A stretch of DNA of 64,000 nucleotides from a bacterium (GCA_037189845.1 JBBCIS010000003.1:385477-449476); one strand, 5' to 3'. Positions 3,617 to 35,097 are shown, numbered from the stretch's first letter. Translations and numbers: made by a program. Notes: a model not told the origin generated them from the letters alone.

Positions 3617-5014
3617 TCAAAAATGTTTATCGATAAATTTTCTGCAGTAAGTTGCTATCGTCACAACACCGGAACCGCAGAACATTTGACCACTGAAATA
3701 TAATCCGTTTTGCCCTTGCAGCTTTTTCATCGTGGCATACCATCCATTCCCGCTGGCCGGAAGCGACGCAGGATTGGAATACTCAAAATCTTCATAAGAG
3801 AGCATGTTGTTCATTTGGGTACCCATTTTAGGCAGGGTATGCTTCAATGCCGCCAGGTATTCATCTTCTGATTCTCCGGTATTTAAATAAACCGCTGCCA
3901 GAGCGACGGGTGCAGCATAAAATTTTTCTATACCATATACATCAGACCTTACCTTCATGTCCGGATGCCCCATTCTCAGACCATTACGCCCGTCACCCAC
4001 TAAGGCAGGAGCAGGGAATTTTTTGCTGTCCCATGATTTTAAGCTTATGGTCCAGACTCTGGTCTGCCTTTCGGGTTTTCCTTCCTGCATCAGCTGACTC
4101 AAATCCTTATCTCTTACAGATTGGGCTGCATGGTGAAGCGGACAACAAAAAATCAACGAATCAGCAGCAGCCGGATTTCCGTTGACATCAAAAAGCACAT
4201 TTCCGTTTTCAGACCGGATATTGCTGATAGTAGCATTCAGGCGAACATCCAGCTGATATTTTTCGACCAATCTTTGAAAAAACGGCTCATACCCTCCTTT
4301 GAAATACAGATAATTTCCTTTGGAAGGGCGGTTGATGAAATCTACCAGATCTTTATTCTTATTCCATTTCGGATGCCATCTGATAATAGTGGCAAATGGC
4401 TCTTTTGAAAGGAACTTGTGGAGGTAAGGTGTCAGGTAATACACTCTGGATGCCATGCTGTACGAAACCGGAAGAGTATGAGCAGGCCCCATGAAAAAGA
4501 GATCTACCACATAAGCAGCAAAAGTCGCGAATGCTTCCATCCCGGTTCTTTTTCCCCATTCTTCTATGTTTTCTCCCGGCAGACAAAGCCCCTTTTCGTG
4601 AATTTCTTCTACATCATAGCATTTTTCTATTTCACACAGAAAATCATATCCTTTTACAAAATCAGACAGCACTTTGAATATGCTGTACTTTTTCAAAGGC
4701 TCAGGAATTTTTATCCGCTTATTTTTCTCAAAATCATAAAAGACAGCATCAGGATAATTACCCATTAGAAATTCAGGAGAGCCTGCAATCTGCATAAAAT
4801 CCGTCTGTACATGATGTCCGTCGAGACTGATTGCAGGAATCAGCTTGGTAGAAAGATCATATGGTTTTCCCTCATAAAAAGCGGTACTGGTCGAACCGGC
4901 GATTTTTGCCCCTTTTTCATATAAAGTGACATCGTACCCTTTTTCTTTCAGATAAATAGTTTTTATGATGCCGGAAACTCCTGCACCAATGATGGCGATG
5001 TGTTTTTTATTCAT
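3617..5014 (-). CDS. FAD/NAD(P)-binding oxidoreductase (amine oxidase / phytoene desaturase-like)
   Basis: N-terminal dinucleotide-binding motif IAIIGAGVSGI...LYEKGAKIAGS; 465 aa. Confidence 0.65.
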   Translation of the reverse strand: MNKKHIAIIGAGVSGIIKTIYLKEKGYDVTLYEKGAKIAGSTSTAFYEGKPYDLSTKLIPAISLDGHHVQTDFMQIAGSPEFLMGNYPDAVFYDFEKNKRIKIPEPLKKYSIFKVLSDFVKGYDFLCEIEKCYDVEEIHEKGLCLPGENIEEWGKRTGMEAFATFAAYVVDLFFMGPAHTLPVSYSMASRVYYLTPYLHKFLSKEPFATIIRWHPKWNKNKDLVDFINRPSKGNYLYFKGGYEPFFQRLVEKYQLDVRLNATISNIRSENGNVLFDVNGNPAAADSLIFCCPLHHAAQSVRDKDLSQLMQEGKPERQTRVWTISLKSWDSKKFPAPALVGDGRNGLRMGHPDMKVRSDVYGIEKFYAAPVALAAVYLNTGESEDEYLAALKHTLPKMGTQMNNMLSYEDFEYSNPASLPASGNGWYATMKKLQGQNGLYFSGQMFCGSGVVTIATYCRKFIDKHF

Positions 5015-5040: not shown

Positions 5041-6537
5041 TTAATCTTTCACGCAACGGCAAGAATAACCGTCTCTAATTGTAGGAGCTGGTGATTGATA
5101 GCTGAAATTAGCAGAATTGTATGCCATAAAATACATATACGAAGTGCCGCCATACTGCGTATTATCATCAACCCACCAATAACCATACTCGTCCATTAAG
5201 AAAGATGATCCATCTCCACCCCAACGCATTCCGCCCGGCAAACCTGAAAAACCCAGATTGTTTGTAGCACCAGAGTTGGGCGATTTCCATAAACCCGTAC
5301 CATCTGTTTTATTGCCGGTAGCTTTCAATCCCCCATAGCTGCTGTTCTCATAATAGCTCAGAGAAACCAAATCCTGGATTGTAGGAATACGCCATCCCTG
5401 CGGACAGAGCTTTCCGGTATTCACCGCATACCAGTTGTATAACTTTCCATAAGGTACATTATACGAAACATCGTTATTATAATGACTCCAGGCTCCGGTA
5501 GTCAGATTCCCCCATGTAGCACCATCATTCACATTCGGTATAGGTGTACCGTCATTATATGTTGCTGTTCTGAGGTTTTCTGCCATCCACGTCTGTGTGC
5601 CTATCTGTATAGTAGCGTAATTATTACCTTCTATATCTGCTACGGCACCATAAGTCAGAACTGGATTCAGGTATGCTCCGTCAGCAAAATTTACTGTCAC
5701 GTCATCAGAGTTGATACCGCAGGCATTGCTGACAATCCAGCGCAGCACATAAGTCCTGCCCGGCACACCTGTAAAAGTGCTTGTTGCGCTTAACGGATTA
5801 CTAAAAATACCACCCTCACCATTTACGATTGTCCACAGACCTGTACCTGATGCTGCCAATGATGCCGGATTATAAAGATTCAGCTGGTCGGTACCGGCAT
5901 CAGCCTGTGAAGGAGGAGCACAAAACCTCACCAGCACGTCATGGAATGTACTGCCCGACTCATTGCTCACTGTCCAGCGCAGTATATATGTAGTTCCCGA
6001 TATACCTGTAAAAGCACTCACAGGGCTTGATGCATCGCTAAAACTGCCTCCTGCTCCGCTCACAATCTTCCACTGCCCTGTACCATCTAATGGCGACATG
6101 GCAGAAAGCCCCGTACTTGTTCCCGGTACATCCGTCTGGTCGCATCCTGCATGAGCTTGTGGTATGTAAACATTGGTTTTAACCATCGTGAATGTCCCTC
6201 CCCATACCCACTCCGAAGCATCTTCTGTAGTCCTTGCGGCAGTATTACACAGGGATTTTACCCGCCACTTATATATACCGGGAGGTACTGTCATGGTAGC
6301 AAAGCCTGCTCCGACAGAACTGTATCCTTTGGAGTTTTCACCCGTCTGCTCGTTTCTCAGCAATATGGCATGAATATCAGCACCTCCCGTACCTGTCCAC
6401 GAAAATGTCACTTGGTTTCCGGCAACAGATACTTGCAAGCCTACAGGCGTACCGCAACTGCCCTGCGCATAGGAGGATTCTGCCACGAACCCGAACACCG
6501 TGAGCAGGAGCAACGAAAGGATGTAATTTCTTATCAT
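5041..6537 (-). CDS. secreted protein with three N-terminal repeat modules and a C-terminal Fibrobacter succinogenes major paralogous (FISUMP) domain
   Basis: C-terminal QTWMAENL...GKLYNWYAV...CPQGWRIPT signature. Three SGTG(L/Q)W(K/T)IV...G..Y.LRW.VSN repeats. Signal peptide is reached from the internal Met at 6537; the ORF-track start at 6570 adds a non-signal extension. Confidence 0.75.
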   Translation of the reverse strand: MIRNYILSLLLLTVFGFVAESSYAQGSCGTPVGLQVSVAGNQVTFSWTGTGGADIHAILLRNEQTGENSKGYSSVGAGFATMTVPPGIYKWRVKSLCNTAARTTEDASEWVWGGTFTMVKTNVYIPQAHAGCDQTDVPGTSTGLSAMSPLDGTGQWKIVSGAGGSFSDASSPVSAFTGISGTTYILRWTVSNESGSTFHDVLVRFCAPPSQADAGTDQLNLYNPASLAASGTGLWTIVNGEGGIFSNPLSATSTFTGVPGRTYVLRWIVSNACGINSDDVTVNFADGAYLNPVLTYGAVADIEGNNYATIQIGTQTWMAENLRTATYNDGTPIPNVNDGATWGNLTTGAWSHYNNDVSYNVPYGKLYNWYAVNTGKLCPQGWRIPTIQDLVSLSYYENSSYGGLKATGNKTDGTGLWKSPNSGATNNLGFSGLPGGMRWGGDGSSFLMDEYGYWWVDDNTQYGGTSYMYFMAYNSANFSYQSPAPTIRDGYSCRCVKD

Positions 6538-6876
6538 AATAGTCAAAATATAAATACAGAAAATCTGCAAAAAGCGTTTTTAGACCAAACAGATTTAATA
6601 AATGTAGGAAAGCTATATATGAAAAAAAATAGCCAAATTGGCCATTTTTTTATACCGTTTAAGCGTTATTACTGTTTTTTGAAATGCTTCCGCCAACCAC
6701 CATACTTCGATAGATGGTTGTTGAATGAAACCGAAATACTCAGTGCCCATCCGCCACAGCGGATAAACTCGGATAAGCAAGCGGACAGGTACAGCATGAC
6801 AGAACTCACCTAAACCTTTACAAAAAATATTATTGGCTATGCCGAAATTCTGGTTTCTAAAAAGAACTCGTGGCAG

Positions 6877-7047: not shown

Positions 7048-10000
7048 TTATTCTTTCATCATCTCCAATTTTATCAGGCGTTTTTCGAGGTCTGAGTTGT
7101 GGGTTTTCTGAGTGCTCAGCTCGGCACCCAGGGTGTTGATGATTTGTTGCTGTTCCTGTATGGCTTTGGTGAGTACCCCTATTAGCTCCGTGGTGTTCAA
7201 TCCGAGATATTTTTCATCCAATTGGGAAACTAAGTTATAGCCTTCCATCTGGTGTGCCTGCAAATTGGATTGTACGTCCTGTGCTATAAATCCGATGGTT
7301 TTTCTTTCGGTATCCGAATTGTTATATACATATTCCACAGGCTGGAGCCGCATGACAAAATCCAATCCGGGTTTGAGGGGCTGTATATTATGCTTCAATC
7401 TTCTGTCGGAAGCATTTGTCCAGGAAGCAGCAAACATCCGGTACACGTTGTGTGCATTGTTTCCGATGGTCACTTCATTGCTCGCATTTATTGCAGAGGC
7501 CTGTGCATTATATCCTATCATGACATTATTGTCTCCCGTCACTAAAGCATCTCCGGCGGATGAACCCAGAGCCACATTGTTTGACCCTATGGTATTTCCA
7601 AGTAAGGCCTGATATCCTATAGCTGTATTCTGTCCCCCCAAAGTATTACTGACCAATGTATTTGTTCCCAATGTGACGTTCATCCCTCCTGAGCTGTTAT
7701 TTTGCAAAGAGCGAAAGCCTACGGCAGTGTTAGCATTTCCTGTGTTGATGGAAGGATTGTTTGAGCCTCTCAGCGCCCCTTTTCCTATTGCTACATTCTG
7801 ATTAATGAAAGCAGTAAGAGTATTATTTGCATAACACATAGCGCTATCCCCAATCGCAGTAGCCCCGGATCCGCGTATGTTCCTGAGTAGTGCATGCATA
7901 CCTACAGCAGTGTTCTGATTGCCGATGGTATTTTCAACAAGTGCTTCTACCCCGATAGCCGTGTTATTATTTCCCATTGTGTTTCGAAGAAGCGCACCTC
8001 TCCCGATGGCTGTATTTTGGTATCCCTCTGTGTTTTGCCAAAGTGTTCCCGACCCGATAGCAGTATTCCGGTAGCCTGTAGTATTTGCGTAAAGTGCACT
8101 TTCTCCCATTGCAGTATTAGCGTATCCGGTAGTAGTATTAAACATGGACTGATAACCCACAGCGATATTATTGTAGCCTGTATTATTTGCCGCATTGGCT
8201 GACCCCCTCAGTGCTTCATAGCCTATGGCAATGTTCTTGCTGTCAAATGAGGTAATTCTTGAATTGGCATAGTACATCGCTCTGTAGCCAATTGCAATAG
8301 TACGGGATACTGCCCTGTTGCTGTAAAGTGCTTCTACCCCGATGGCCGTATTATTATTTCCCACCGTGTTCTGATAAAGGGCCTGAAAACCGCATGCTAT
8401 ATTATTATATCCGCTTGTGTTCTGATAAAGGACCTGAGAACCGTATGCCATGTTATTATATCCGCTTGTATTCTGATAAAGGGCCTGATACCCATACACC
8501 GCATTATCATTTCCGCTTCTATTGGAAAAGAGCGACTGATACCCTGTCGCTGTATTATTATTTCCTATGTTGATTGCCGCATTGGTTGACCCTCTCAATG
8601 CTTCATAACCTACTGCAACATTATAATTTTCAAATGCAGTAACTCTGCTGCTGGTATAGTACATCGCCCTGCTACCGATAGCAGTGGCATGTGATCCGGC
8701 TACGTTGTTGTGAAGTGTCTCAAATCCTACCGCCGTATTCAGATTTCCGTCCATGTTCCGCATAAGTGCATCTCGTCCCACCACTGTATTTTCATATCCG
8801 GAATTATTATTCCAAAGAGCACCCTGCCCGAGTGCCGTATTTGAATATCCTGTTCGATTGGCCCAGAGCGTACGCTCACCGATTGCGGAGTTGGCATATC
8901 CTGTAGTATTCTCCCACATAGATTGATAGCCTACAACAGTATTATTGTAGCCCGTATTATTTACCGCATTGGTTGATCCTCTCAGTGCCTCATAACCAAT
9001 AGCGGTATTTCTGCTGTCAAACGAGGTAGCCGTTGAATTGGCATAATACATTGCCCCGCTACCGATAGCAACAGCTCTATAACCTGCCCTATTGCTGTAA
9101 AGGGACTCTGCACCGATGGCCGTATTATTATTTCCTGTAGTATTGTTGCGAAGTGCATTCATTCCAAAAGCAGAATTAGCAGTTCCTGTATTGGTCTCTA
9201 AACTTCTGTATCCCAAAGACGTATTCCTTCCTGTAGTGTCTATTCTCCCTGCTTTCTGGTTATTGACCCTGAAATTCAGCGGTACATTATCTGTCGTACC
9301 TATGAAATGTGTGCCGTCCATAGTGCCGGAATTTCCAGTGAGTGACCAATAGTTGGCCAGGGTTAAATTCTGCCAGCTTGCCACACCGTCTGCATCAGAA
9401 GTAAGGACTTTACCTGCGCCCGGTACACCACCGCGAATACGTATCTGTCCATTGATGTCCAAAGATTGGGTTGGAGTGCTGGTGCCTATCCCGACCCTGT
9501 TTCCTCCACCCTGCAATATCAAAGGTAAAAGTGTACTGCCGTCTGTGGCGATAGCATCAATAACCCCGACACCAAGAGAGCGACTGGGCATGATGCGAAC
9601 AACAGCACTGGTGGCATTAGGAGTGGTTACTGCATCCTGATCAGTTATCCAGAGTTGTTTGTTGTTGTTTCTGTTCACTCCGGCCATGATGGCAATACCG
9701 CTTGCAGCATTGCCGCTCGGGGTTACATATTCCTGTCCGCTGATGGTCAGGTTAGCCTGCCGCTGGGTGGTCTTGTTGATTTCTACGGCACCCGTATTGG
9801 CAGAAATCACTCTTCCGGCTCCTGCTCCTCCAAAATTATATGCTTCATTCAGTGTTCCTCCTCCGGTAATGGGTGTTTCCCATGTTGCTACTCCGCTTGC
9901 ATCGGAAGTGAGGACTTTTCCTCCCCCCGGTGCACCGCCCCGGATACGGACTTGTCCTACGATATCTAATTTTGCAGTAGGTGCACCAGTGCCTATTCCT

Positions 10001-10839
10001 ACATTTACATTGGTGGTATCACCGAGTACGAGACTATTGCTCATACTCACCTGGGCATTATAACCTATAGCCGTGGCATTTGTCAAATTACTAAATATAA
10101 CGCCTGCATTATAGCCAAGTGCTGTATTATTATTCCCGGAACCATTGGAGAAAAGTGAATACCTGCCAGTAGCAGTATTATTATTTCCCGTATTATTAGA
10201 ATAAAGCGCACCATCTCCATTGGCAGTATTATTTGTCCCTGTGGTATTATGCCTAAGTGCGGTATATCCATTAGCACTGTTATTGCTTCCTGTTGTATTG
10301 TTGAGGAGACTATACATTCCAAAAGCAGAGTTTCCTATTCCGGTATTAACATCCAGACTTCTGTACCCAATAGAGGTATTAGCCCTAATACTATCTATTC
10401 GCCCTGATTTTTGATTATTGACTCTGAAATTCAGCGGACTGCCGTCCGTAGTACCTATAAAATGTGTGCCGTCTACAGTGCCGGAGTTACCAGTAAGAGA
10501 CCAATCGTCACTAAGCTCTCCGGCTGTGATTAATTTTGTCCAGACAGGTGTAACAACACTGCCGGCATTATAATAAAAACCAGTTCCTCCCCCGATGGAG
10601 GAATTGATGTTCCAGACTAAGAGAGATGTAGCAGGATTGGGAATAGTAACAGCATCTGATGTACTGTTCAGAAAAACTCTGGGTATCAGCAGGCCTTTGT
10701 TGCTCGCACTGATGTCCAGCATGGCAGAGTTGTCAGGAGCAGCCCCGGTAGAATTGATACCGATATTTTGTGCCGGTGCCCCGGAATATTCGATAAATAA
10801 GAATACTATCAGTAAACTGATCTTTAATTTATCTTTCAT
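7048..10839 (-). CDS. secreted tail-fibre-like repeat protein with C-terminal intramolecular chaperone (peptidase S74-type) auto-processing domain
   Basis: Signal peptide MKDKLKISLLIVFLF. Dozens of ~14-17-aa N(T/N)xxGxxAL-type repeats, predicted beta-helix. Internal segmental duplications (WSLTGNSGT[VM]DGTHFIGTTD...NFRVNNQK and GIGT..P...LDI.GQ.RIRGG.PG.GKVLTSDA.GVA.W). C-terminus SDRRLKHNIQPL...IGFIAQDVQ resembles the endosialidase/tailspike chaperone domain with a DxRxK-type cleavage region. Confidence 0.8.
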   Translation of the reverse strand: MKDKLKISLLIVFLFIEYSGAPAQNIGINSTGAAPDNSAMLDISASNKGLLIPRVFLNSTSDAVTIPNPATSLLVWNINSSIGGGTGFYYNAGSVVTPVWTKLITAGELSDDWSLTGNSGTVDGTHFIGTTDGSPLNFRVNNQKSGRIDSIRANTSIGYRSLDVNTGIGNSAFGMYSLLNNTTGSNNSANGYTALRHNTTGTNNTANGDGALYSNNTGNNNTATGRYSLFSNGSGNNNTALGYNAGVIFSNLTNATAIGYNAQVSMSNSLVLGDTTNVNVGIGTGAPTAKLDIVGQVRIRGGAPGGGKVLTSDASGVATWETPITGGGTLNEAYNFGGAGAGRVISANTGAVEINKTTQRQANLTISGQEYVTPSGNAASGIAIMAGVNRNNNKQLWITDQDAVTTPNATSAVVRIMPSRSLGVGVIDAIATDGSTLLPLILQGGGNRVGIGTSTPTQSLDINGQIRIRGGVPGAGKVLTSDADGVASWQNLTLANYWSLTGNSGTMDGTHFIGTTDNVPLNFRVNNQKAGRIDTTGRNTSLGYRSLETNTGTANSAFGMNALRNNTTGNNNTAIGAESLYSNRAGYRAVAIGSGAMYYANSTATSFDSRNTAIGYEALRGSTNAVNNTGYNNTVVGYQSMWENTTGYANSAIGERTLWANRTGYSNTALGQGALWNNNSGYENTVVGRDALMRNMDGNLNTAVGFETLHNNVAGSHATAIGSRAMYYTSSRVTAFENYNVAVGYEALRGSTNAAINIGNNNTATGYQSLFSNRSGNDNAVYGYQALYQNTSGYNNMAYGSQVLYQNTSGYNNIACGFQALYQNTVGNNNTAIGVEALYSNRAVSRTIAIGYRAMYYANSRITSFDSKNIAIGYEALRGSANAANNTGYNNIAVGYQSMFNTTTGYANTAMGESALYANTTGYRNTAIGSGTLWQNTEGYQNTAIGRGALLRNTMGNNNTAIGVEALVENTIGNQNTAVGMHALLRNIRGSGATAIGDSAMCYANNTLTAFINQNVAIGKGALRGSNNPSINTGNANTAVGFRSLQNNSSGGMNVTLGTNTLVSNTLGGQNTAIGYQALLGNTIGSNNVALGSSAGDALVTGDNNVMIGYNAQASAINASNEVTIGNNAHNVYRMFAASWTNASDRRLKHNIQPLKPGLDFVMRLQPVEYVYNNSDTERKTIGFIAQDVQSNLQAHQMEGYNLVSQLDEKYLGLNTTELIGVLTKAIQEQQQIINTLGAELSTQKTHNSDLEKRLIKLEMMKE
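8366..8518 (-). repeat. 3 x 51-bp in-frame tandem repeat inside the tail-fibre-like gene (a further partial copy at ~8315-8365)
   Basis: Units GTGTTCTGATAAAGGGCCTGAAAACCGCATGCTATATTATTATATCCGCTT x3 at >85% identity, encoding 17-aa repeats. Confidence 0.85.
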
Positions 10840-10975
10840 CTCATGCTACTATAATGGTCAAACAAATACCGACAGACTTCCTGAAAAGAGCTGTCGCAGG
10901 GTAGTCGACAAATATATTGTTGAGATATATTTTAAAAAATAGCCATTTTAGCTATTTTTTAAAGATAAAGTGCGC

Positions 10976-11740
10976 TTAAATGCTCAACAAGTTACATACT
11001 TCCACTATAGCAGTATTGTTGCGTAATCCTAATCTGTTTCTGACAGCTTTCAGATGATTATTCACAGTATGTACACTGATAAATAATTTTGCTGCAATCT
11101 CGTTAACCTTCATACCTGCTGCCCAATGCCTGATACAGGACAACTCTATATCGGAAACAATTTCTTTGTTTCTTATTTTTTTCTGATCCGAAAACCAGGT
11201 ATATACATTTTCTCCGGTATTGATCCGGAACCAGTATACATCACCTTCCAGCAAATGAGTTACGTCTTTTTGATAAGACAAAAGTATCTTGGACTGTTTC
11301 TGTCCGTTTAATATCATAGGGACAACATGCCAGATCAATCTGATAGCATCTCCGCGTAAAGTTGTTGCCTTTGCCCCGCAAAAAGTGCTGCTGAAATACA
11401 TCTTTTCCTGATCGGAAAACTTTTCCATGAGTTCTTCATGCACCTTTATGCACTCACCAAGAGTTCGGATATCATCCAGGACTTTCGGATAAAACTCTTT
11501 AAAAGAATGAATACTTTCCGTTGTCTCTACTCCCCAAAACTGGTTGAAATTGGGAGTTACGTTTTCGTAATTGAGTGTGACTTTATTCAGAATCATCAAT
11601 ACGATATTATGACTCTCGGCATACTCATTTAAAAAAGCAAAATATTGCTTCAAATCGGATTCTTCTAATTTTTCAAAATCATCAATATTACTGATAGTAT
11701 TAAATATTGCTTCTGCCTTTGTAGTGATTAAAGAATTCAT
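10976..11740 (-). CDS. LuxR/GerE-family HTH transcriptional regulator with uncharacterised N-terminal domain
   Basis: C-terminal ELSCIRHWAAGMKVNEIAAKLFISVHTVNNHLKAVRNRLG is a GerE/LuxR HTH. No receiver or autoinducer-binding signature seen N-terminally. Confidence 0.75.
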   Translation of the reverse strand: MNSLITTKAEAIFNTISNIDDFEKLEESDLKQYFAFLNEYAESHNIVLMILNKVTLNYENVTPNFNQFWGVETTESIHSFKEFYPKVLDDIRTLGECIKVHEELMEKFSDQEKMYFSSTFCGAKATTLRGDAIRLIWHVVPMILNGQKQSKILLSYQKDVTHLLEGDVYWFRINTGENVYTWFSDQKKIRNKEIVSDIELSCIRHWAAGMKVNEIAAKLFISVHTVNNHLKAVRNRLGLRNNTAIVEVCNLLSI

Positions 11741-12266: not shown

Positions 12267-13538
12267 TTATTTACTGATGACAAGCTTTGAAATGCTGCTC
12301 TGTCCGGCATCATCTGTCACAGTCACAAGATAAATTCCGTTTGGCGCATCCAGCTGAATTTCCTGTAGCATTTTTGTCAATCTGATTTCTTTCATCAGCT
12401 GACCGTTCATAGAGTGTATCTGTACAAGGGTCTTGGATTTTAATTCCGGAGTCTGTACTATAAAGCTTCCCTGGCTTGGATTCGGATATAGTCTGAGCGC
12501 TGTGATATTTCTGTTTTTCAACCCGGTAGTCACAGTAGTATCAGCATAATATTTGCATTGAGAATCGTATAAAAAATCTACTGCTTTTTCCAAAGCAAAT
12601 TCAGGCATCAGATCATCCACGGGATGTGCAGCACCATTTACGATGTGTTTTACAACCCGGGCACCGATGCTTTCTAATCTGGGAACATAATGCTGGGCTC
12701 CATAAAATTTACCAAGATGGCAGGCAGCAACATAGAAACATCCATGGTTATACGGTACTGACGGATCTGCATTGTGGTGTAACGCCATCACATCTACATC
12801 ATTCTTCTCTCCTATCCAGTCCACTTCAGCCAATGCGCCGCTGTCTACTATCAGATTTCTGACAGTATTGGTAGAACCGTATTGCAGATGTTCTGATGTA
12901 GTCCCTTCAAAATCACCTCCCAAAGTGGTCAGCGCCTGTCTCCATGACCCGCTCAATTCATCAGACTCATCCAGAAAAGCAGTATGAATCACTCCGATAG
13001 CTCCTGCTGACGAGCCGTATAAGGTAATGTTGTTCGTATCTATCCCAAAAGGGTTATCTGCTTCTGCAGCTGTGTACTTTAAATACCTGATAGCGCCTTT
13101 TATATCATGGACACTTCGGATAATGGCTCTGTACCAGTTGATCTTATTGGCAAAGTAAAGAATGGGAAGCCCGTCCGGATCTTCTGTTTGCTCCAGGCGA
13201 TACTGCACTGCTACTGCTACATAACCACGTTTGGAAAGCTCATTTCCCATCATTTTCATGGTACTGCCCGTTTTATCTCCGGCAACATATGCTCCGCCGT
13301 GCATCAATAAAACTACAGGTCTGACCCGCATCGTATCATCCAGTAGCTCAGGCATGTAAACATCCAGAAATAAATCCTGCTGCTTTCCTAAATTGTTGGT
13401 ATTAGATCCGTATTTCACATTGGAAATAACAGCATTTCTATCAAAAATCTTATCTCTGAATCTGGCATCGCTGCATTGTGCCTGAATAAAGTTCTGAAAA
13501 ATCAGAAAAGCTGTAACTGATAGTAACAGGTGTCTCAT
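12267..13538 (-). CDS. secreted alpha/beta-hydrolase (esterase/lipase) with T9SS C-terminal sorting domain
   Basis: Signal peptide present. LLMHGGAYVAGD (HGG oxyanion motif) and YGSSAGA (GxSxG). C-terminal ~75 aa LYPNPSQGSFIV...GIYLVTVTDDAGQ...KLVISK resembles a Por/T9SS CTD. Confidence 0.75.
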   Translation of the reverse strand: MRHLLLSVTAFLIFQNFIQAQCSDARFRDKIFDRNAVISNVKYGSNTNNLGKQQDLFLDVYMPELLDDTMRVRPVVLLMHGGAYVAGDKTGSTMKMMGNELSKRGYVAVAVQYRLEQTEDPDGLPILYFANKINWYRAIIRSVHDIKGAIRYLKYTAAEADNPFGIDTNNITLYGSSAGAIGVIHTAFLDESDELSGSWRQALTTLGGDFEGTTSEHLQYGSTNTVRNLIVDSGALAEVDWIGEKNDVDVMALHHNADPSVPYNHGCFYVAACHLGKFYGAQHYVPRLESIGARVVKHIVNGAAHPVDDLMPEFALEKAVDFLYDSQCKYYADTTVTTGLKNRNITALRLYPNPSQGSFIVQTPELKSKTLVQIHSMNGQLMKEIRLTKMLQEIQLDAPNGIYLVTVTDDAGQSSISKLVISK

Positions 13539-15188: not shown

Positions 15189-15380
15189 CACGGCGTTCGC
15201 ATATAAAAGTTTATTGTTTGCCACTAATACACAAATTGATTCTTTCAGCATGACAAAGAAGTTTTTATTATCATGATTTATAGTCAGACTGTCTGTTCAA
15301 GAAAGAAACAAGACTCTTTATCCATTGATTAGTGAATTCGTGGCTATCTATTTTGGATGATTACCTGGCGAACTTTCGCT
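15189..15380 (-). repeat. MITE-like intergenic repeat, copy C (reverse orientation, one end divergent)
   Basis: Reverse complement contains AATCATCCAAAATAGATAGCCACGAATTCACTAATCAATGGATAAA...TGTGTATTAGTGGCAAACAATAAACTTTTATATGCGAACGCCGTG, matching copies A and B. Confidence 0.65.
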
Positions 15381-15505: not shown

Positions 15506-16498
15506 ATGAAAAAGCACATACACATTCAACTTTTCGCGGTTTTGATTTCTTTTCTTTTACTGTCTACGGCATGTGACAAAGATGGAACAGAAATCATTGA
15601 CATTAAACTTCCGGATGTAACTACAAACCCGGCAACTGGCATGACTGATAACTCAGTAGTGCTTCATGGCACGCTGAACAGCGATGGAAGTGCCAAGGTG
15701 ACTGAAAGAGGATTTGTATGGTCTGCAACAAATAAAATCCCATCTCTTGCTGACAATAAAATTATCTCAACGGGTACTACGGGAAACTTTGAGGCGACTC
15801 TCAGCGGGTTGAATGAATTTACAGTTTACTACGTCAGAGCTTATGCAACCAGCAAAGAAGGGACCGGATATGGTGTAAATACTGAATTTAAGACGTTACA
15901 AAAGGCTATTGATGTCACTTGTGAAGCAACTATAACAGATGTGGATGGCAATACTTATCAGGTGGTAAAAATAGGCAGCCAATGCTGGATGGAGTCCAAT
16001 CTGAAAACATCAAAGTATAACGATGGAACCACAATCAGCAATCTGACTGAGAATGATGCCTGGAACAATTCTACTTCCGGAGCATGGTGCTACTATAAAA
16101 ACAATTCTGACTCAGCAATGTATGGCAAACTCTATAACTGGTACACAGCCAATACCGGCAAACTGTGTCCTGCTGGCTGGAAAGTTCCTACAGATGATGA
16201 TGTAAAAAAGCTTCTGGACTTTGTCGGGAATCCGGGTGCAGCTGCAATAAAATCTGTTTCAGGATGGCCGGAAGGATTAAATGGTATCAACTCCAGCGGC
16301 TTTAATCTGTATCCTGCCGGTGACAGATTTGCAACCAGCGGATTCACAAATCTGGGCCAGGCTGCTTTCATGTGGATCTCTAATGAATACAGCACTGATA
16401 ACGGAATTATATACGGTATGGCAGGTACCGTCACGAATTTCACTCAGATGAATCAAAAGAAAAATACCGGAGCCTGTATCCGATGTATCAGAAAATAA
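15506..16498 (+). CDS. lipoprotein with C-terminal FISUMP domain (paralog of 5041-6537)
   Basis: Lipobox LLSTAC. C-terminal QCWMESNL...GKLYNWYTANTGKLCPAGWKVPT closely parallels the 5041-6537 C-terminus. Fn3-like N-terminal region. Confidence 0.75.
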   Translation: MKKHIHIQLFAVLISFLLLSTACDKDGTEIIDIKLPDVTTNPATGMTDNSVVLHGTLNSDGSAKVTERGFVWSATNKIPSLADNKIISTGTTGNFEATLSGLNEFTVYYVRAYATSKEGTGYGVNTEFKTLQKAIDVTCEATITDVDGNTYQVVKIGSQCWMESNLKTSKYNDGTTISNLTENDAWNNSTSGAWCYYKNNSDSAMYGKLYNWYTANTGKLCPAGWKVPTDDDVKKLLDFVGNPGAAAIKSVSGWPEGLNGINSSGFNLYPAGDRFATSGFTNLGQAAFMWISNEYSTDNGIIYGMAGTVTNFTQMNQKKNTGACIRCIRK

Positions 16499-18357: not shown

Positions 18358-19431
18358 ATGGACAAGTTTATTCAGAAGCTCAATTTTGATTTTGTTACTA
18401 ACCAAAGAGTACTACAACTCATTGGCCACATTGATGGCTTCAAGGGCAAATGGAATATTGCCGAAAAACAGGAAAACCGTTATTTGAAAGAATTGCGGAA
18501 AATTGCCACCATTGAAAGTATTGGTTCATCTACAAGAATTGAGGGCGCAACACTTACCAACCAGGAAGTACGGGAACTTCTGAAAGACATCAAAATTACA
18601 AAGCTAAAAAGTCGTGATGAACAAGAGGTAATGGGATATTACAATGTTCTGGAACTCATTTATGATAATTATTCCGTTATACAACTTTCAGAAAGTTACA
18701 TTAAGCAACTCCACCAGATTCTTTTGAAATACAGTAGTAAAGACGAACGGCACAGGGGAGGCTACAAACACCTTTCCAACAAAGTAGTAGCGACTTATCC
18801 GACAGGTGAACAGAGAACAATTTTTTCAACTACTGAGCCTGCATTGGTTGCCGGAGAAATGCAGGAGTTAGTTGATTGGACAAAAGCACAATTAGAACAA
18901 AAAAGTATTCATCAACTAATTGTAATTGGTAGTTTTATTTACGATTTTTTAAGCATACATCCATTTCAGGATGGGAACGGCAGATTGTCCAGACTGCTTA
19001 CTACACTTTGCCTGTTACAAAATGATTATTCCTTTATTCAATACATCTCGTTTGAAAACCATATCGAGCAAAACAAAAAATCCTATTACGAAGCTCTGAT
19101 GAATGGTCAGAAAAATCGGGGAACAGATAACGAACGCATAGATCTTTGGCTAGTTTTCTTTCTGGAAAGCCTGAAAACACTTACTGAGAAATTAGAGCAG
19201 AAATATGACATATTCAAATCTAAAGGTGGTTATCTGAATGACCGGCAAAAGTTAATAAAAAATTTTATTGCAAATCGCCAACCTGTTAAGGTAAGTGATT
19301 TAGCAAAGCAATTTCCTGATATCGGGTTGAGTACTTTGAAGAAAGATTTGCAATACCTGCGAAATGAACAAGTGCTGACAATGATTGGACAGGGAAAAGG
19401 AAGCGTCTACATTTTGAAAAAACAAGACTAA
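18358..19431 (+). CDS. Fic-family protein (class II, N-terminal inhibitory motif) with C-terminal winged-helix domain
   Basis: Fic motif HPFQDGNGRLSRLL; N-terminal SxxxEG (STRIEG) inhibitory-helix motif; C-terminal wHTH-like segment KVSDLAKQFPDIGLSTLKKDLQYLRNEQVL. Confidence 0.85.
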   Translation: MDKFIQKLNFDFVTNQRVLQLIGHIDGFKGKWNIAEKQENRYLKELRKIATIESIGSSTRIEGATLTNQEVRELLKDIKITKLKSRDEQEVMGYYNVLELIYDNYSVIQLSESYIKQLHQILLKYSSKDERHRGGYKHLSNKVVATYPTGEQRTIFSTTEPALVAGEMQELVDWTKAQLEQKSIHQLIVIGSFIYDFLSIHPFQDGNGRLSRLLTTLCLLQNDYSFIQYISFENHIEQNKKSYYEALMNGQKNRGTDNERIDLWLVFFLESLKTLTEKLEQKYDIFKSKGGYLNDRQKLIKNFIANRQPVKVSDLAKQFPDIGLSTLKKDLQYLRNEQVLTMIGQGKGSVYILKKQD

Positions 19432-30837: not shown

Positions 30838-30890
30838 TGATTTGAGGTTAAAGACATGAGACGAGAGACAATAGACTTAAGAAGTTTAAG

Positions 30891-30950
30891 GTTTAAAGTC
30901 TAAGGTTTAAAGTTTGCTCACGCAACGATTGAAAACCTTAGACTTTAAAC
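30891..30950. promoter_or_regulatory. 18-bp perfect inverted repeat GTTTAAAGTCTAAGGTTT-N24-AAACCTTAGACTTTAAAC between the flotillin and giant-ATPase genes
   Basis: Arms at 30891-30908 and 30933-30950 are exact reverse complements. No U-tract follows on the coding (minus) strand. Adjacent direct repeats AAGGTTTAAAGT x2. Confidence 0.6.
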
Positions 30951-30962
30951 AACTTATCAGAT

Positions 30963-33038: not shown

Positions 33039-33188
33039 GAAAATTGATTTAGTTTTAAATGTTTAAGGTTTTTTTAGTTTAAAGCCGATGAGTTTCGACA
33101 GGTGGTTTCCGGATCATTTCGACTCCGCTCAATGACCTCTTCAACACTCTATAGTGTTAACAAATTCGGCAATCGTAAATTGTAATTT

Positions 33189-33848
33189 TTAGTCTTGTAA
33201 TACATTTTGAACAGTAATCTCCGGAATGACCCAGTAGTATTTTCCTCCGTCTCCTTCATCTACCAGCATAACCTCTGCATTATATGAAATACGTTGTTTT
33301 GATTTACTTTTTACCAAAACCCTGATAACATCTTTCATAATGATAACTTCAGCATATCCCAGCTTGTCTCCTTCGATAGTAGATTTCATAAATCCTGTCC
33401 GCCCGATCAGCTCATGTGCTTCTTCGCCATTATATCCCATTGTTTTATACACTTTGATGAGTGGTTTGGTGGCCCATCTGGTCAAAAAATATGCAATGAA
33501 AAAAACCGGTAACAATATCAAAGCAGACTTCCAGCCCCATGCACCGATGTTCCAGATCATAGAAGCAGCTAAAGTAAACAACCAGGAAATCAGCTTGAAT
33601 GTACTGAGGACGACCATTATCGGCACTTTACCTACGTTAATAAATTCCAGCGCTTTGGAAAAAAAAGATGGTTCTGCGCCGTCAAGATCTGTGTCTACAT
33701 CTAATCCTTCCGGTGCTCCTACATCCAGGTCTCCCAGAAAATCTCCTGAAACGAATGTGACTAACCAATATATAGCAGACAGTCCTACTAAAGCCGTCAT
33801 GATAGCATTCGGTAAAGGGTCAAACAGATAGCTGATAATTGTTACCAT
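33189..33848 (-). CDS. NfeD-like membrane protein (YuaF/YqiJ-type, C-terminal OB-fold)
   Basis: Multi-TM N-terminus; C-terminal ...GDKLGYAEVIIMKDVIRVLVKSKSKQRISYNAEVMLVDE beta-barrel pattern. Sits immediately upstream of the flotillin gene, as in yuaF-floT / yqiJK. Confidence 0.65.
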   Translation of the reverse strand: MVTIISYLFDPLPNAIMTALVGLSAIYWLVTFVSGDFLGDLDVGAPEGLDVDTDLDGAEPSFFSKALEFINVGKVPIMVVLSTFKLISWLFTLAASMIWNIGAWGWKSALILLPVFFIAYFLTRWATKPLIKVYKTMGYNGEEAHELIGRTGFMKSTIEGDKLGYAEVIIMKDVIRVLVKSKSKQRISYNAEVMLVDEGDGGKYYWVIPEITVQNVLQD

Positions 33849-33867
33849 TGATTTTTATTCTTTTTGT

Positions 33868-34566: not shown

Positions 34567-34585
34567 AACTTATAAATTTTAAAAA

Positions 34586-34984
34586 TTATCGTTTAGAAAA
34601 ATATATTATCTGCTCTCTGTATTCATAGAGTAGTAACCCTAATGAGTTCAGTGCAGCTTCCAGCTCGTTGAAATCCATATTCTCAATCTGCATGGTATAC
34701 CTGTACAAAACTTTATCACCCTCTTCGTTGATCACAAAGGCCCCATGCAGCATATCCCTGTTTTTCTGCAGCAATGCCTTGAACATTTCAAGATTATCTT
34801 CCTTGAATGAAAAGAGATAATACTCCATGATCAACAAGGGTGGCACTACGCCAATAATCAGATTCCTGATTCCGTCCTGCTCATTCTCAATTTTCATGAT
34901 TCCGGACAACTCATCTGCATAAGTCACTTTGTACTCTGCCTGGTGAATCAACTCCCTGATTTTATCCATGTATGATACTCTCAT
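34586..34984 (-). CDS. YbjN/DUF2170-like (type III secretion chaperone-fold) small protein, PspA-adjacent
   Basis: ~133 aa from Met MRVSYMDKIREL. Size, alpha/beta pattern and position next to pspA resemble E. coli yjfI-yjfJ and YbjN-family proteins. The ORF-track N-extension to 35074 is rejected. Confidence 0.45.
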   Translation of the reverse strand: MRVSYMDKIRELIHQAEYKVTYADELSGIMKIENEQDGIRNLIIGVVPPLLIMEYYLFSFKEDNLEMFKALLQKNRDMLHGAFVINEEGDKVLYRYTMQIENMDFNELEAALNSLGLLLYEYREQIIYFSKR

Positions 34985-35051
34985 AGGCAATTTATTTTTA
35001 GATTGAAAATATTGCTTACCTTTAAGCATAATAAAATTAGCAAAAAATATT

Positions 35052-35078: not shown

Positions 35079-35097
35079 GGAAAAATAATTAGCACAT

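What the first reader, a model, noticed from the sequence alone, without database searches (positions are those of the whole stretch)
7048..11740. Stand-alone tail-fibre-like protein with self-cleaving intramolecular chaperone domain, outside any prophage, next to a LuxR-type solo regulator
The 1263-aa secreted protein combines beta-helix-type N(T)xxGxxAL repeats, two classes of internal segmental duplication (DNA near-identity between ~9270-9480 and ~10420-10560), and a C-terminal SDRRLKHNI... chaperone-of-endosialidase-type domain that in phage tailspikes is auto-excised after trimerisation. No capsid, terminase, integrase or other phage gene lies within 10 kb; the flanks are a FISUMP protein, a LuxR regulator, an esterase and Nfu. 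This suggests a domesticated trimeric fibre used as a cell-surface adhesin or contact-dependent structure. It may be regulated by the adjacent LuxR-family protein, whose ~190-aa N-terminal domain is uncharacterised.
Basis: partly seen in the sequence, partly recalled or inferred. Interest (0 to 1): 0.6.

Follow-up and report, generated by a model that had tools for sequence, protein, structure and literature searches.

The report
Cellular phage-like fibre with self-cleaving chaperone
This is an intact, non-prophage gene for a secreted phage-tail-fibre-like protein with a self-cleaving folding domain; it is an ordinary member of a very large, already named but functionally unstudied Bacteroidota family, sitting behind a regulator gene whose locus carries a conserved DNA palindrome.

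Summary
ORF 7048-10839(-) encodes a 1263-aa protein with a Sec signal peptide, 17-residue NTAxG repeats and a C-terminal Peptidase_S74 chaperone domain (Pfam E=8e-15; Ser1144/Lys1149 invariant in homologues). No phage gene lies anywhere in the 64-kb window. Only "DNA near-identity" is overstated (75-84%).

It is not rare. More than 4,300 homologues exist, mostly Bacteroidota chromosomal "tail fiber domain-containing proteins". About 90% carry signal peptides, and C-terminal tips vary (S74, T9SS CTD, Lcl_C). Phage fibres match only residues ~510-1259. The N-terminal half is cellular. Its node motif matches solved Bdellovibrio MAT fibres (E=2e-8), the closest characterised analogue.

New here: orthologues of the adjacent LuxR-family gene (Chitinophagales only) always precede a variable slot. 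The slot holds a fibre (window, L087), a decayed fibre pseudogene (L083), FISUMP proteins or an amine oxidase. Each cargo gene is preceded by the palindrome ATAGCCA-N3-TGGCTAT, 22 nt (21 in one) before a TAnnTTT(G/A) box (11 sites, 8 genomes). This palindrome is absent from 77 other fibre loci. That supports LuxR control, although the palindrome could equally be a terminator hairpin.

Verdict: new member of a known kind, moderate interest.

The parts
10771..10839 (-). Sec signal peptide (aa 1-23, ...SGAPA|Q); no lipobox Cys
   Evidence: Read from the translation. About 90% of homologues have a comparable N-terminal hydrophobic segment.
10516..10770 (-). N-terminal 'GINxxGxxPDxSAMLD..KGLLIPRV' domain (aa 24-108)
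   Evidence: phmmer finds 91 copies in 41 of the top homologues, both N-terminal and internal. No phage match covers it. By eye it is roughly 65-70% identical to the N-terminus of the LuxR-linked fibre P0118 in L087.
10009..10503 (-). Module 1 (aa 113-277): start motif WSLTGNSGTxDGTHFIGTTD..PLNFRVNNQK.GRID followed by 17-residue NTAxG repeats
   Evidence: The start motif occurs 1-6 times per homologue, 304 copies in all. The direct repeats D2-D4 cover this module.
9877..10008 (-). Node 1 (aa 278-321): VGIGTGAPTAKLDIVGQVRIRGG..GKVLTSDASGVATWE
   Evidence: 200 copies in 74 homologues. The profile containing this motif hits Bdellovibrio MAT fibres in the PDB: Bd2133 8ond at 2e-8 and Bd3182 8ojn at 1e-5.
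9499..9876 (-). Middle domain (aa 322-447), core ..SGQEY..GVNR..NKQLWITDQD..IDAIATDG..
   Evidence: Absent from the top 120 homologues. It has 377 representatives at E<=1e-3 in the 1.84-billion-protein library. These sit in fibres with S74, C1q or collagen parts. The AF2 core has pLDDT 84-91 but the whole model is only 69.
9370..9498 (-). Node 2 (aa 448-490), a duplicate of node 1 (72% identical)
7411..9348 (-). Module 2 (aa 498-1143): second start motif, about 35 17-residue repeats (by my count) including three 129-aa super-repeats, and a terminal cap. This is the phage-like shaft.
   Evidence: Repeat families D1-D4. Super-repeats are 51-66% identical to each other. The region is 29-36% identical to phage fibres in 108 phage records. 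The AF2 model shows one short strand per repeat, and the best non-ICA fold hits are the YadA head and left-handed beta-helices.
7051..7410 (-). Peptidase_S74 / ICA intramolecular chaperone (aa 1144-1263) with Ser1144-Lys1149 and a C-terminal coiled-coil helix. Predicted self-cleavage lies between Ala1143 and Ser1144.
   Evidence: Pfam E=8.2e-15. Ser and Lys are invariant in 22 homologues. The profile hits MyRF ICA 7dc3 at 3e-13, phage fibre 6f45, T5 pb1 8hqz and phi29 gp12 3gud. AF2 pLDDT is 81-93 in this part, and the top 13 Foldseek PDB hits are all ICA domains. The cleavage position is by analogy with Bd3182 A781|S782 (PMC10769870).
10939..10955 (-). Palindrome ATAGCTA-AAA-TGGCTAT, 21 nt after the LuxR stop and 100 nt before the fibre ATG. 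Candidate LuxR operator or terminator hairpin.
   Evidence: One of only two matches with <=1 mismatch in the window. It is conserved in 8 LuxR loci and absent from 77 other fibre loci. As RNA it folds at -13.2 kcal/mol, z=-6.
10909..10916 (-). TATATTTG, matching the Bacteroidetes -7 promoter consensus TAnnTTTG (consensus recalled from memory), 22 nt after the palindrome
   Evidence: The spacing is 22 nt in 10 of 11 sites and 21 nt in one. The motif alone is not enriched in the window (59 found against 65 expected).
10976..11740 (-). GerE/LuxR-family regulator (254 aa). HTH at aa 196-247; the N-terminal ~190 aa have no recognisable family.
   Evidence: Pfam GerE E=9e-12. Only 9 homologue clusters exist, and those with names are Chitinophagales. 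PDB profile hits cover the HTH only.
6629..6645 (-). Second copy of the palindrome (ATGGCCA-ATT-TGGCTAT) upstream of the FISUMP gene, followed 22 nt later by TACATTTA at 6599-6606
5041..6570 (-). FISUMP/PKD secreted protein (509 aa), the most frequent downstream partner of this LuxR clade
   Evidence: Pfam Fib_succ_major E=5e-33. A FISUMP gene lies downstream of the LuxR orthologue in L082, L083, L085, L086 and L089.
3617..5014 (-). FAD amine-oxidase-like gene, 26 nt after the FISUMP gene. It is part of the conserved LuxR-linked block.
   Evidence: The same gene follows the LuxR or FISUMP gene in L083, L086 and L088.

Best explanation
The gene encodes a cellular, non-viral member of the S74-terminated mosaic trimeric fibre class. 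NCBI names these "tail fiber domain-containing protein", Pfam assigns PTL_trimer + Peptidase_S74, and the characterised analogue is the Bdellovibrio MAT fibres.

Proposed mechanism:
1. The 1263-aa precursor is exported by Sec and its signal peptide is removed after Ala23. The signal peptide is shown by sequence; the export itself is inferred.
2. The C-terminal S74 domain trimerises through its helical coiled coil and templates folding of the repeat shaft into a trimer. This is inferred from the family.
3. Ser1144, activated by Lys1149, then cleaves the Ala1143-Ser1144 bond. This releases the 120-aa chaperone and leaves a kinetically stable fibre of about 1120 residues per chain. The dyad is shown to be present and invariant; cleavage is inferred.
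4. The fibre is modular: N-domain, module 1, node, middle domain, node, module 2. All of these modules recur in other combinations elsewhere (shown).
5. The most likely role is a surface or extracellular adhesin (inferred). The route across the outer membrane is unknown, because the protein has no T9SS CTD.

The gene occupies a variable cargo slot downstream of a clade-specific GerE/LuxR-family regulator. The fibre, FISUMP and amine-oxidase genes in that slot each carry the same palindrome 22 nt (21 in one site) upstream of a -7-like box. This is most simply read as a small LuxR-controlled regulon of secreted proteins (inferred from comparative genomics).
For: Domain identity
- S74 is supported by Pfam, by the invariant Ser/Lys, by PDB profile hits to MyRF, T5, phi29 and phage LTF chaperones, and by the fold search.

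Non-phage status
- No phage family was found in 64 kb.
- The fibre's GC3 is 0.41, within the neighbours' range of 0.29-0.47.
- The protein has a signal peptide, as do about 90% of homologues.
- Phage matches cover only aa ~510-1259.
- The phage Venkman gp55 fibre has the same repeats and an S74 domain but no signal peptide, and it sits in a virion structural module.

Family size and mosaicism
- More than 4,387 homologues exist, on chromosomal contigs of up to 5 Mb.
- C-termini vary.
- At least 504 relatives were found among GTDB species genomes.

Link to MAT fibres
- The node profile hits Bd2133 at 2e-8, Bd3182 at 1e-5, 8ol4 at 8e-5 and Bd1334 at 2e-3.
- MAT properties are taken from PMC10769870.

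LuxR slot
- A fibre pseudogene survives in three reading frames in two independent assemblies.
- The palindrome is followed by a -7-like box at 22 nt (21 in one) at 11 sites in 8 genomes.
- The palindrome occurs only in LuxR loci among the 90 loci held.
- It has only two matches with <=1 mismatch in the window.
Against: - Trimerisation, auto-cleavage and surface exposure were not tested. No multimer prediction tool was available.
- There is no outer-membrane export signal. No T9SS CTD, autotransporter barrel or lipobox is present. A periplasmic or vesicle location therefore cannot be excluded.
- The Foldseek E-values for the S74 model are weak (best 4.5e-3), although probability is 1.0.
- The palindrome also folds as a 13-15-bp hairpin followed by a U-run (-12.5 to -14.3 kcal/mol). 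All its variants remain G-U or compensatory compatible, so it may be an intrinsic terminator rather than an operator.
- TAnnTTTG is not enriched window-wide.
- Only this window and +-10 kb of the contig were seen. A phage-tail-like particle cluster elsewhere in the genome cannot be ruled out.
Confidence: 0.72

Rival explanations
1. It is a leftover phage gene: a tail fibre or tailspike from a decayed prophage, with no cellular role.
For: The shaft and S74 domain are 29-36% identical to bona fide phage fibres in 108 phage records. PHROG hits are strong, down to 6e-106. The gene is variable among relatives: it is a pseudogene in L083 and absent in L082, L085, L086 and L088.
Against: No other phage gene was found in 64 kb. 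GC3 is native. The ORF is an intact 3.8 kb. The protein has a Sec signal peptide, which is incompatible with cytoplasmic virion assembly. The N-terminal ~500 aa have no phage match. Thousands of chromosomal homologues share the same signal-peptide architecture.
Confidence: 0.05
2. It is the target-binding fibre of a phage-tail-like machine (eCIS, tailocin or T6SS-related) encoded elsewhere in the genome.
For: S74-bearing fibres are used by such particles (eCIS fibre catalogues listed; titles and abstracts only, not read). The rest of the genome was not inspected.
Against: The signal peptide argues against cytoplasmic assembly. No sheath, tube or baseplate gene lies in the window. To my knowledge eCIS fibres are normally encoded inside their operon (from memory).
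Confidence: 0.05
3. It is a T9SS- or partner-dependent surface filament: exported across the outer membrane by type IX secretion, directly or piggy-backed on a CTD-bearing partner, like other Bacteroidota adhesins.
For: The organism has T9SS cargo, with Por_Secre_tail domains at 12267-13538 and 36681-39503. Some family members carry a T9SS CTD after the S74 domain (P0003, P0015, P0108, P0112). In 27 of 77 family loci a T9SS-CTD protein sharing a conserved N-terminal motif lies within 10 kb of the fibre gene. In at least 7 of them it is immediately upstream and small (~165 aa). In L022, L023, L045 and L049 it is followed by proteins that look like PorP/SprF and OmpA by sequence (not Pfam-checked).
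Against: This protein has no CTD and ends in the S74 coiled coil. No such partner is encoded in the window. This is a variant of the main explanation, concerning only the export route, rather than a true alternative.
Confidence: 0.15
4. The conserved palindrome is only an intrinsic, bidirectional transcription terminator copied along with the cargo genes. On this reading the LuxR-family gene does not regulate the fibre.
For: The element is an A-run, a 7-bp GC-containing stem and a T-run. It forms hairpins of -12.5 to -14.3 kcal/mol with z of -4 to -6. It lies 2-32 nt after the LuxR stop in 7 of 8 genomes. The variant copies differ only by G-U-compatible or compensatory changes.
Against: In L086 it lies 295 nt after the LuxR stop, and in the window 403 nt after the fibre stop, yet it is always 21-22 nt before a TAnnTTT(G/A) box. 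The 17-nt core is nearly invariant in sequence while LuxR identity falls to 61% and the rest of the spacer diverges. It is absent from the 77 other fibre loci and the phage locus held.
Confidence: 0.4
5. It is a trimeric autotransporter adhesin, as JGI annotates several homologues.
For: The repeats resemble YadA-head repeats. Some homologues hit PF05658, and the model weakly matches the YadA head 1p9h (prob 0.28).
Against: No YadA-type C-terminal membrane anchor was detected. The C-terminus is an S74 domain that is expected to be cleaved off.
Confidence: 0.02

Closest known systems
Bdellovibrio bacteriovorus MAT (mosaic adhesive trimeric) fibres, S74 subgroup, e.g. Bd3182 (PMC10769870)
   Same: - A chromosomal, non-phage protein of about 1000 aa with a signal peptide.
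- A long trimeric beta-helical shaft built from swappable modules.
- A C-terminal S74 domain with the SDxxxK motif, which self-cleaves before the Ser.
- Family members with alternative tips. MAT fibres use TNF-like or C-type-lectin tips; here the family uses C1q and Lcl_C/FISUMP.
- A shared VGxGTxxPxxxL node or capping-loop motif. The profile hits Bd2133 at 2e-8 and Bd3182 at 1e-5.
   Different: - Different phylum: Bacteroidota/Chitinophagales against Bdellovibrionota.
- The N-terminal domain is the Bacteroidota GINxxG..KGLLIPR type, which also recurs internally. Homology to the invariant MAT N-terminal domain was not tested.
- The shaft is dominated by 17-residue YadA-like NTAxG repeats.
- There is no evidence of predation or of the MAT vesicle.
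- Only one copy lies in this window, against 21 paralogues in Bdellovibrio.
Phage tail fibres and tailspikes with C-terminal intramolecular chaperone (endosialidase NF, phi29 gp12, T5 pb1; Methylophilales phage Venkman gp55)
   Same: The same 17-residue repeat shaft and S74 domain, at 29-36% identity over aa ~510-1259. The same Ser-Lys dyad and fold.
   Different: - Phage proteins lack a signal peptide, carry a virion-attachment N-terminus, and lie in structural gene modules.
- The window protein has a Sec signal and a cellular N-terminal half, and there are no phage neighbours.
Eukaryotic MyRF ICA domain (PDB 7dc3)
   Same: It is the best PDB match of the S74 profile (E=3e-13) and of the model (TM 0.54-0.57 normalised by target). 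It is another example of the phage chaperone used in a cellular protein.
   Different: MyRF is a membrane-bound eukaryotic transcription factor. The rest of its architecture and function is unrelated.
NCBI PGAP 'tail fiber domain-containing protein' / Pfam PF26696 (PTL_trimer) + PF13884 architecture in Bacteroidota
   Same: The identical protein (P0001) carries exactly this precomputed architecture. Homologues are named this way by NCBI.
   Different: This is an annotation class, not a characterised system. I found no functional study of the Bacteroidota proteins in the searchable literature.
LuxR/GerE-family transcription factors binding palindromic boxes near -42 (lux-box paradigm; from memory)
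   Same: A C-terminal GerE HTH. A 17-nt palindrome whose centre I estimate at about -43 of the putative start site (my estimate), repeated before each downstream gene.
   Different: No autoinducer-binding or receiver domain is present. The N-terminal 190 aa are unassigned. Binding is untested, and the palindrome may be a terminator.

Membership tests
Peptidase_S74 / ICA intramolecular chaperone domain | Profile match above the curated threshold | tested here: met
   PF13884 at aa 1144-1194, E=8.2e-15, 55.3 bits against a cut-off of 22. The family profile hits solved ICA domains: 7dc3 3e-13, 6f45 8e-11, 8jov 4e-9, 8hqz 4e-5.
Peptidase_S74 / ICA intramolecular chaperone domain | Catalytic Ser-Lys dyad in S-D-x-x-x-K | tested here: met
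   S1144-D-R-R-L-K1149. Ser and Lys are invariant, and Asp nearly so, in 22 diverse homologues. The motif is present in 68 of the 120 top hits.
Peptidase_S74 / ICA intramolecular chaperone domain | ICA fold ending in a long trimerising helix | tested here: met
   AF2 pLDDT is 81-93 for this part, with a helix at model residues 233-279. The top 13 Foldseek PDB hits are all ICA domains, with probability 0.69-1.0 and target-normalised TM up to 0.60, but E-values are >=4.5e-3.
Peptidase_S74 / ICA intramolecular chaperone domain | Trimerisation-dependent self-cleavage releasing the domain | not testable with these tools
   This needs expression of wild type against S1144A, or a multimer prediction.
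MAT-type cellular mosaic trimeric fibres (Bdellovibrio) | Signal peptide and a chromosomal, non-phage locus | tested here: met
MAT-type cellular mosaic trimeric fibres (Bdellovibrio) | Shared shaft or capping-loop motif (V-G-x-x-x-x-P-x-x-x-L) and homology to solved MAT fibres | tested here: met
   Profile A4 hits Bd2133 8ond at 2.1e-8, Bd3182 8ojn at 1.1e-5, 8ol4 at 8.4e-5 and Bd1334 8oml at 2e-3. The Foldseek hits to the same proteins are not significant.
MAT-type cellular mosaic trimeric fibres (Bdellovibrio) | Invariant MAT N-terminal ~130-aa beta-rich domain | not tested
   No MAT N-terminal sequence was available in the tools. The window's N-domain is a Bacteroidota-type module that also occurs internally.
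MAT-type cellular mosaic trimeric fibres (Bdellovibrio) | Interchangeable C-terminal tips within the family | tested here: met
   Homologues end in S74, S74+T9SS CTD or Lcl_C, and some carry collagen, C1q or FISUMP segments. The LuxR-linked relative P0118 shares the N-terminus but has a different distal part and no S74.
MAT-type cellular mosaic trimeric fibres (Bdellovibrio) | Cell-surface location and adhesion to a target | not testable with these tools
   This needs proteomics or microscopy.
Phage virion tail fibre / tailspike | Encoded in a phage structural module | tested here: not met
   No phage family was found in the 64-kb window. Contrast Venkman gp55.
Phage virion tail fibre / tailspike | Cytoplasmic protein with a virion-attachment N-terminus (no signal peptide) | tested here: not met
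   A signal peptide is present. No phage record matches aa 1-470.
Trimeric autotransporter adhesin | C-terminal YadA-type membrane anchor | tested here: not met
   Only Peptidase_S74 is found at the C-terminus.
T9SS cargo | C-terminal sorting domain (type A or B) | tested here: not met
   There is no Por_Secre_tail hit, and the protein ends in a coiled coil. The same search detects CTDs in two neighbouring proteins.
Quorum-sensing LuxR 'solo' | N-terminal autoinducer-binding domain plus GerE HTH | tested here: not met
   Only GerE (aa 196-247) was found by Pfam and NCBIfam. The 10-sequence profile matches PDB entries over the HTH only. The protein is a GerE/LuxR-family regulator with an unassigned sensor domain.

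The most novel reading that the evidence does not exclude
A clade-specific LuxR/GerE-family regulator with an unassigned 190-aa sensor domain binds a conserved 17-bp palindrome, which I estimate is centred near -43. Through it, the regulator controls an exchangeable cassette of secreted adhesin-like genes in Chitinophagales: an S74-matured MAT-like fibre, lectin-like FISUMP proteins and an amine oxidase. The fibre gene in this slot is gained, tip-swapped and lost between close relatives. More broadly, Bacteroidota would then have a phylum-wide, Sec-exported, phage-derived fibre system equivalent to the Bdellovibrio MAT fibres, with an unknown route across the outer membrane.
Probability: 0.3. 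Interest if true: 0.5.

Novelty: new member of a known kind. Interest (0 to 1): 0.35.

Why it matters
The gene itself is an ordinary member of a very large family. The family, however, is thousands of phage-derived, signal-peptide-bearing fibres in Bacteroidota genomes. I found no published function for it and no known export route. The only characterised cellular analogue mediates prey recognition in Bdellovibrio.

This locus offers a compact, testable handle:
- a single fibre gene;
- a predicted cleavage site (Ala1143|Ser1144);
- an adjacent dedicated regulator;
- a precisely positioned conserved palindrome shared with neighbouring secreted-protein genes.

It also documents gain, tip exchange and decay of such a fibre at one chromosomal slot among close relatives.

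Tried and rejected
- Single-sequence phmmer of the full protein and of the C-terminal 177 aa against PDB sequences found nothing. A profile was needed.
- The search for related loci with the S74 alignment failed because no stretch was conserved enough. The module-start motif worked instead.
- I tested whether the LuxR, FISUMP, esterase or amine-oxidase genes are conserved neighbours of the fibre family. They are not: at most one weak match each for LuxR and FISUMP among 77 loci, and the five esterase hits appear to be via its T9SS CTD.
- I tested whether the recurrent family partners are encoded in the window. These are small T9SS-CTD proteins with a conserved N-motif, PorP/SprF-like and OmpA-like proteins, and a 220-aa barrel-like protein. 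None is present.
- The regulator cluster seen near 32 of 77 family loci is a single-linkage mix of histidine kinases, response regulators and SpoIIE-like sensors. I judged it close to background expectation.
- The sigma-70 promoter scan was not above shuffles (16 found against 15 expected). The terminator scan missed the AT-rich hairpin. TAnnTTTG is not enriched window-wide.
- The metagenome scan for the palindrome plus box returned 58 stretches. All but one, which is the same contig as L083, lacked a LuxR gene and mostly lacked ORFs. They appear to be unrelated repeats or chance matches, so the scan gave no extension of the regulon.
- The fold search of the node-middle-node model (pLDDT 69) gave no significant match. 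The MAT fibres at the top of the list have E of 0.06-0.6.
- Literature searches for Peptidase_S74 with Bacteroidetes, for PTL_trimer, and for 'tail fiber domain-containing protein' found no functional study of the Bacteroidota family. The meaning of the Pfam name PTL_trimer was not established.
- Recent horizontal acquisition judged from base composition was rejected. The higher GC comes from codon positions 1 and 2, and GC3 is native.

Full report
**1. Observation**

ORF 7048..10839 on the minus strand encodes 1263 aa. The identical protein occurs on a 965-kb NCBI contig (GCA_037189325.1) and in an independent Logan assembly.

- The N-terminus (MKDKLKISLLIVFLFIEYSGAPA|Q) is a classical Sec signal with no lipobox.
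- The repeat finder shows a 51-nt (17-aa) unit, three 387-nt (129-aa) super-repeats, and a module duplicated 1155 nt apart.
Identity is 84% over 64 nt and 75% over 158 nt. At protein level it is 76% over 78 aa for the module start and 72% for the node motif.
- Pfam places Peptidase_S74 at aa 1144-1194 with E=8.2e-15.
- The flanks are as described: a FISUMP protein, a GerE/LuxR-family gene, an esterase with a T9SS CTD, and Nfu.
- Pfam scans of the other ORFs, including every ORF of at least 150 aa from 24 kb onward, found metabolic, regulatory and transport families and no phage family.
- The fibre's GC3 (0.41) lies within its neighbours' range (0.29-0.47). Its higher overall GC comes from codon positions 1 and 2.

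**2. The S74 domain is genuine**

- In an alignment of 22 diverse homologues, Ser1144 and Lys1149 (SDRRLK) are invariant and Asp1145 nearly so.
- The profile of that alignment hits solved ICA domains: MyRF 7dc3 (3e-13), a phage long-tail-fibre tip 6f45 (8e-11), 8jov (4e-9), T5 pb1 8hqz (4e-5) and phi29 gp12 3gud (0.06).
- An AF2 model of aa 984-1263 has pLDDT 81-93 over the S74 part and ends in a 47-residue helix.
- Its 13 best Foldseek PDB matches are all intramolecular chaperones. The next match is the YadA head, followed mostly by left-handed beta-helices, which fits the repeat region.
- The E-values are weak (>=4.5e-3), so the fold evidence is supportive rather than independent proof.

By analogy with Bd3182, where the crystal trace ends at A781 and S782 is catalytic (PMC10769870), cleavage is predicted between Ala1143 and Ser1144. 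That would give a mature chain of about 1120 aa and a 120-aa released chaperone.

**3. It belongs to a very large cellular family**

- The homology search scored 4,387 proteins at E<=1e-5 among a capped 8,000 candidates.
- The named ones are "tail fiber domain-containing protein" from Bacteroidia, Chitinophagales, Flavobacterium, Pedobacter and Ignavibacteria. JGI calls some "trimeric autotransporter adhesin".
- Many lie on contigs of 0.2-5 Mb.
- The precomputed architecture of the query is PF26696 (PTL_trimer) + PF13884.
- Roughly 90% of full-length homologues start with a signal-peptide-like segment.

The proteins are modular.
- A start motif (W.L.GN.GT....FIGTTDN.PLNFRVNNQKAGRI) occurs 1-6 times per protein. 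It is followed by 17-residue repeats and then by a node motif (VGIGTxxPxxxLxVxG...GKVLTSDxxGxAxW).
- C-termini vary: S74 with a coiled coil, S74 followed by a T9SS CTD, Lcl_C/DUF1566, or others. A FISUMP domain is embedded in P0061.
- The query's middle domain (aa 322-447) is absent from the 120 best hits.
- That domain has 377 representatives in the 1.84-billion-protein library. These sit in fibres with S74, C1q or collagen parts.

**4. Relation to phages**

tblastn against 50,697 phage records gives 108 hits. All cover only aa ~470-1259, mostly from ~510 onward, at 28-37% identity, and none covers the N-terminal half.

The best hit is Methylophilales phage Venkman gp55. It lies between tail-tube and tail-fibre genes. 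It has the same NTxGxxNTAxG repeats and an SDARDK S74 domain, but it starts MADIVLTGD... with no signal peptide.

The window protein is therefore a phage-type shaft and chaperone joined to a cellular, Sec-targeted N-terminal half.

**5. Closest characterised analogue**

The Bdellovibrio MAT fibres (PMC10769870) have these features:
- chromosomal proteins of about 1000 aa with a signal peptide;
- a trimeric beta-helical shaft;
- either an S74 end with SDxxxK or alternative adhesive tips;
- a conserved capping-loop motif;
- demonstrated S74 self-cleavage and surface location.

A profile of the query's node-middle-node region hits the solved MAT fibres: Bd2133 at 2.1e-8, Bd3182 at 1.1e-5, 8ol4 at 8.4e-5 and Bd1334 at 2e-3. 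It then hits MyRF at 0.16. Foldseek hits of the low-confidence model to the same proteins are not significant.

I therefore file the gene as a member of the S74-terminated mosaic fibre class. Homology of its N-terminal domain to the MAT N-terminal domain was not tested.

**6. Export and function**

The protein has no T9SS CTD, no autotransporter anchor and no lipobox.

In other genomes, family members are often encoded next to other components. The PorP/SprF, OmpA and barrel labels below are from reading the sequences and were not checked against Pfam.
- T9SS-CTD proteins with a conserved N-terminal motif lie within 10 kb in 27 of 77 loci.
- PorP/SprF-like proteins lie nearby in 6 loci and OmpA-like proteins in 11 loci.
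- A 220-aa barrel-like protein lies nearby in 5 loci.
- None of these is encoded in the window.

Surface display is thus plausible but unproven, and the outer-membrane route is unknown.

**7. The LuxR-family neighbour**

The 254-aa protein has only a GerE HTH (aa 196-247). Its N-terminal 190 aa match no Pfam, NCBIfam or PDB family. It should therefore not be called a quorum-sensing solo. It has only nine homologue clusters (59-91% identity), and those with names come from Chitinophagales MAGs.

Across 77 loci of the fibre family, no orthologue of this regulator is nearby. The single weak match (2e-7) is a 217-aa response-regulator-type GerE protein. From the regulator's side the picture differs. 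Its upstream neighbours vary, but downstream on the same strand lies one of the following:

| Locus | LuxR identity | Genes downstream of the LuxR orthologue |
|---|---|---|
| Window | 100% | fibre, FISUMP, amine oxidase |
| L083 / L084 | 76% | fibre remnants, FISUMP, amine oxidase |
| L087 | 61% | a 1795-aa fibre-family protein (P0118) |
| L082, L085, L089 | 65-69% | a FISUMP/PKD protein |
| L086 | 65% | amine oxidase, then FISUMP |
| L088 | 73% | amine oxidase only |

- The L083 and L084 remnants cover aa 4-39, 357-425 and 424-497 in three reading frames. They are identical in two independent assemblies.
- P0118 has PTL_trimer and YadA_head domains and no S74. Its first ~130 aa closely match the query, but its distal part differs.

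The fibre therefore occupies a variable slot and has been gained, tip-swapped and lost.

**8. A conserved palindrome**

Aligning the intergenic regions by eye revealed ATAGCCA-N3-TGGCTAT, flanked by an A-run and a T-run.

- It occurs at 11 sites in 8 genomes. In every case a TAnnTTT(G/A) box follows 22 nt later (21 nt in one site). This box matches the Bacteroidetes -7 promoter consensus, which I recall from memory. The intervening sequence varies.
- Each site precedes a cargo gene. In the window the sites are at 10939-10955 (fibre) and 6629-6645 (FISUMP).
- These are the only two matches with <=1 mismatch in the 64-kb window.
- The exact pattern is found only in the LuxR loci among the 90 loci held. 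It is absent from all 77 other fibre loci.
- In L086 the palindrome lies 295 nt after the LuxR stop, and in the window 403 nt after the fibre stop. Its position therefore tracks the downstream box rather than the upstream gene.
- I estimate the centre of the palindrome at about -43 of a start site placed just after the box. That is the classical position of a LuxR-type activator site (position recalled from memory; my estimate).

The same element also folds as a 13-15-bp RNA hairpin followed by a U-run (-12.5 to -14.3 kcal/mol, z -4 to -6). Its variants are G-U-compatible or compensatory. An intrinsic terminator is therefore a serious rival.

I put about 0.55-0.6 on an operator or combined function. 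A metagenome scan for the composite pattern gave only unrelated hits apart from the L083 contig.

**9. Verdict**

The sequence observation is confirmed. The "domesticated fibre" interpretation is right in kind, but it describes a common, already annotated class with a characterised analogue in Bdellovibrio. The novelty class is therefore "new member of a known kind".

Three added results make it moderately interesting (0.35):
- the chimeric split between a cellular N-terminal half and a phage-like distal half;
- the sequence-level link to MAT fibres;

Noticed in passing
window 25990-35775: A gene cluster of a 1615-aa DUF3686/DUF7902/AAA ATPase, two proteins with no Pfam family (691 and 219 aa), PspA/IM30 and a CesT_Tir_1/YbjN-like protein. 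A divergent XRE-type HTH regulator sits alongside. It looks like a conserved stress or defence-like module.
   Followed up: no
L083:8902-9497 and L084:1075-1670: A decayed fibre pseudogene sits between the LuxR orthologue and the FISUMP gene. It retains the signal peptide plus aa 4-39, then aa 357-425 and 424-497 of the window protein, in three different frames. It is identical in two independent assemblies.
   Followed up: yes
L006:753-1238, L028:8714-9208, L047:8478-9008, L066:345-809, L059:8613-9119; L022, L023, L045, L049: Small (~165 aa) T9SS type-A CTD proteins share an N-terminal motif (stGG...g.isYtiGE....tQGfQQP). They lie immediately upstream of fibre genes in at least 7 genomes (the five listed plus L048 and L050). 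The same motif with a type-B-like CTD is followed by proteins that look like PorP/SprF and OmpA (identified by eye, not Pfam-checked). This may be a conserved export partner of the family, and it is absent from the window.
   Followed up: partly
L074, L077, L055, L041, L034, L057, L065, L018, L022: Large sensor proteins lie within 10 kb of fibre genes in 9 of 77 loci, sometimes in several copies. They end in a motif (ADQFGG..GKKF....W.G...QxDDILVIGIRI) that I took, by eye, for a SpoIIE/PP2C-type phosphatase domain; it was not checked against Pfam.
   Followed up: no
P0067 (1622 aa, partial protein from the homology search): An S74-like SDARMK motif lies internally, at residue ~1174, and is followed by about 450 more residues of fibre-type sequence. 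This is an S74 domain that is not C-terminal.
   Followed up: no
L086:8766-9060: The LuxR-to-palindrome spacer contains several copies of a short hairpin-like repeat (ATCCCGAAGGGAT, with variants such as TTCCGAAGGGAT and ATCCCTTCGGGAT). They resemble REP-type intergenic elements.
   Followed up: no
window 15506-16498 and 18358-19431: A second FISUMP paralogue (330 aa) and a Fic-domain protein lie within 9 kb of the fibre. The second FISUMP gene has no close copy of the palindrome upstream; the nearest match, at 15280-15296, has 3 mismatches.
   Followed up: partly
L098-L145 (JGI Ga0307xxx / Ga0325xxx metagenome contigs): Dozens of contigs carry the exact palindrome-plus-box pattern but have no LuxR gene and mostly no ORF downstream. 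They probably carry an unrelated repeated element that happens to share the pattern.
   Followed up: no
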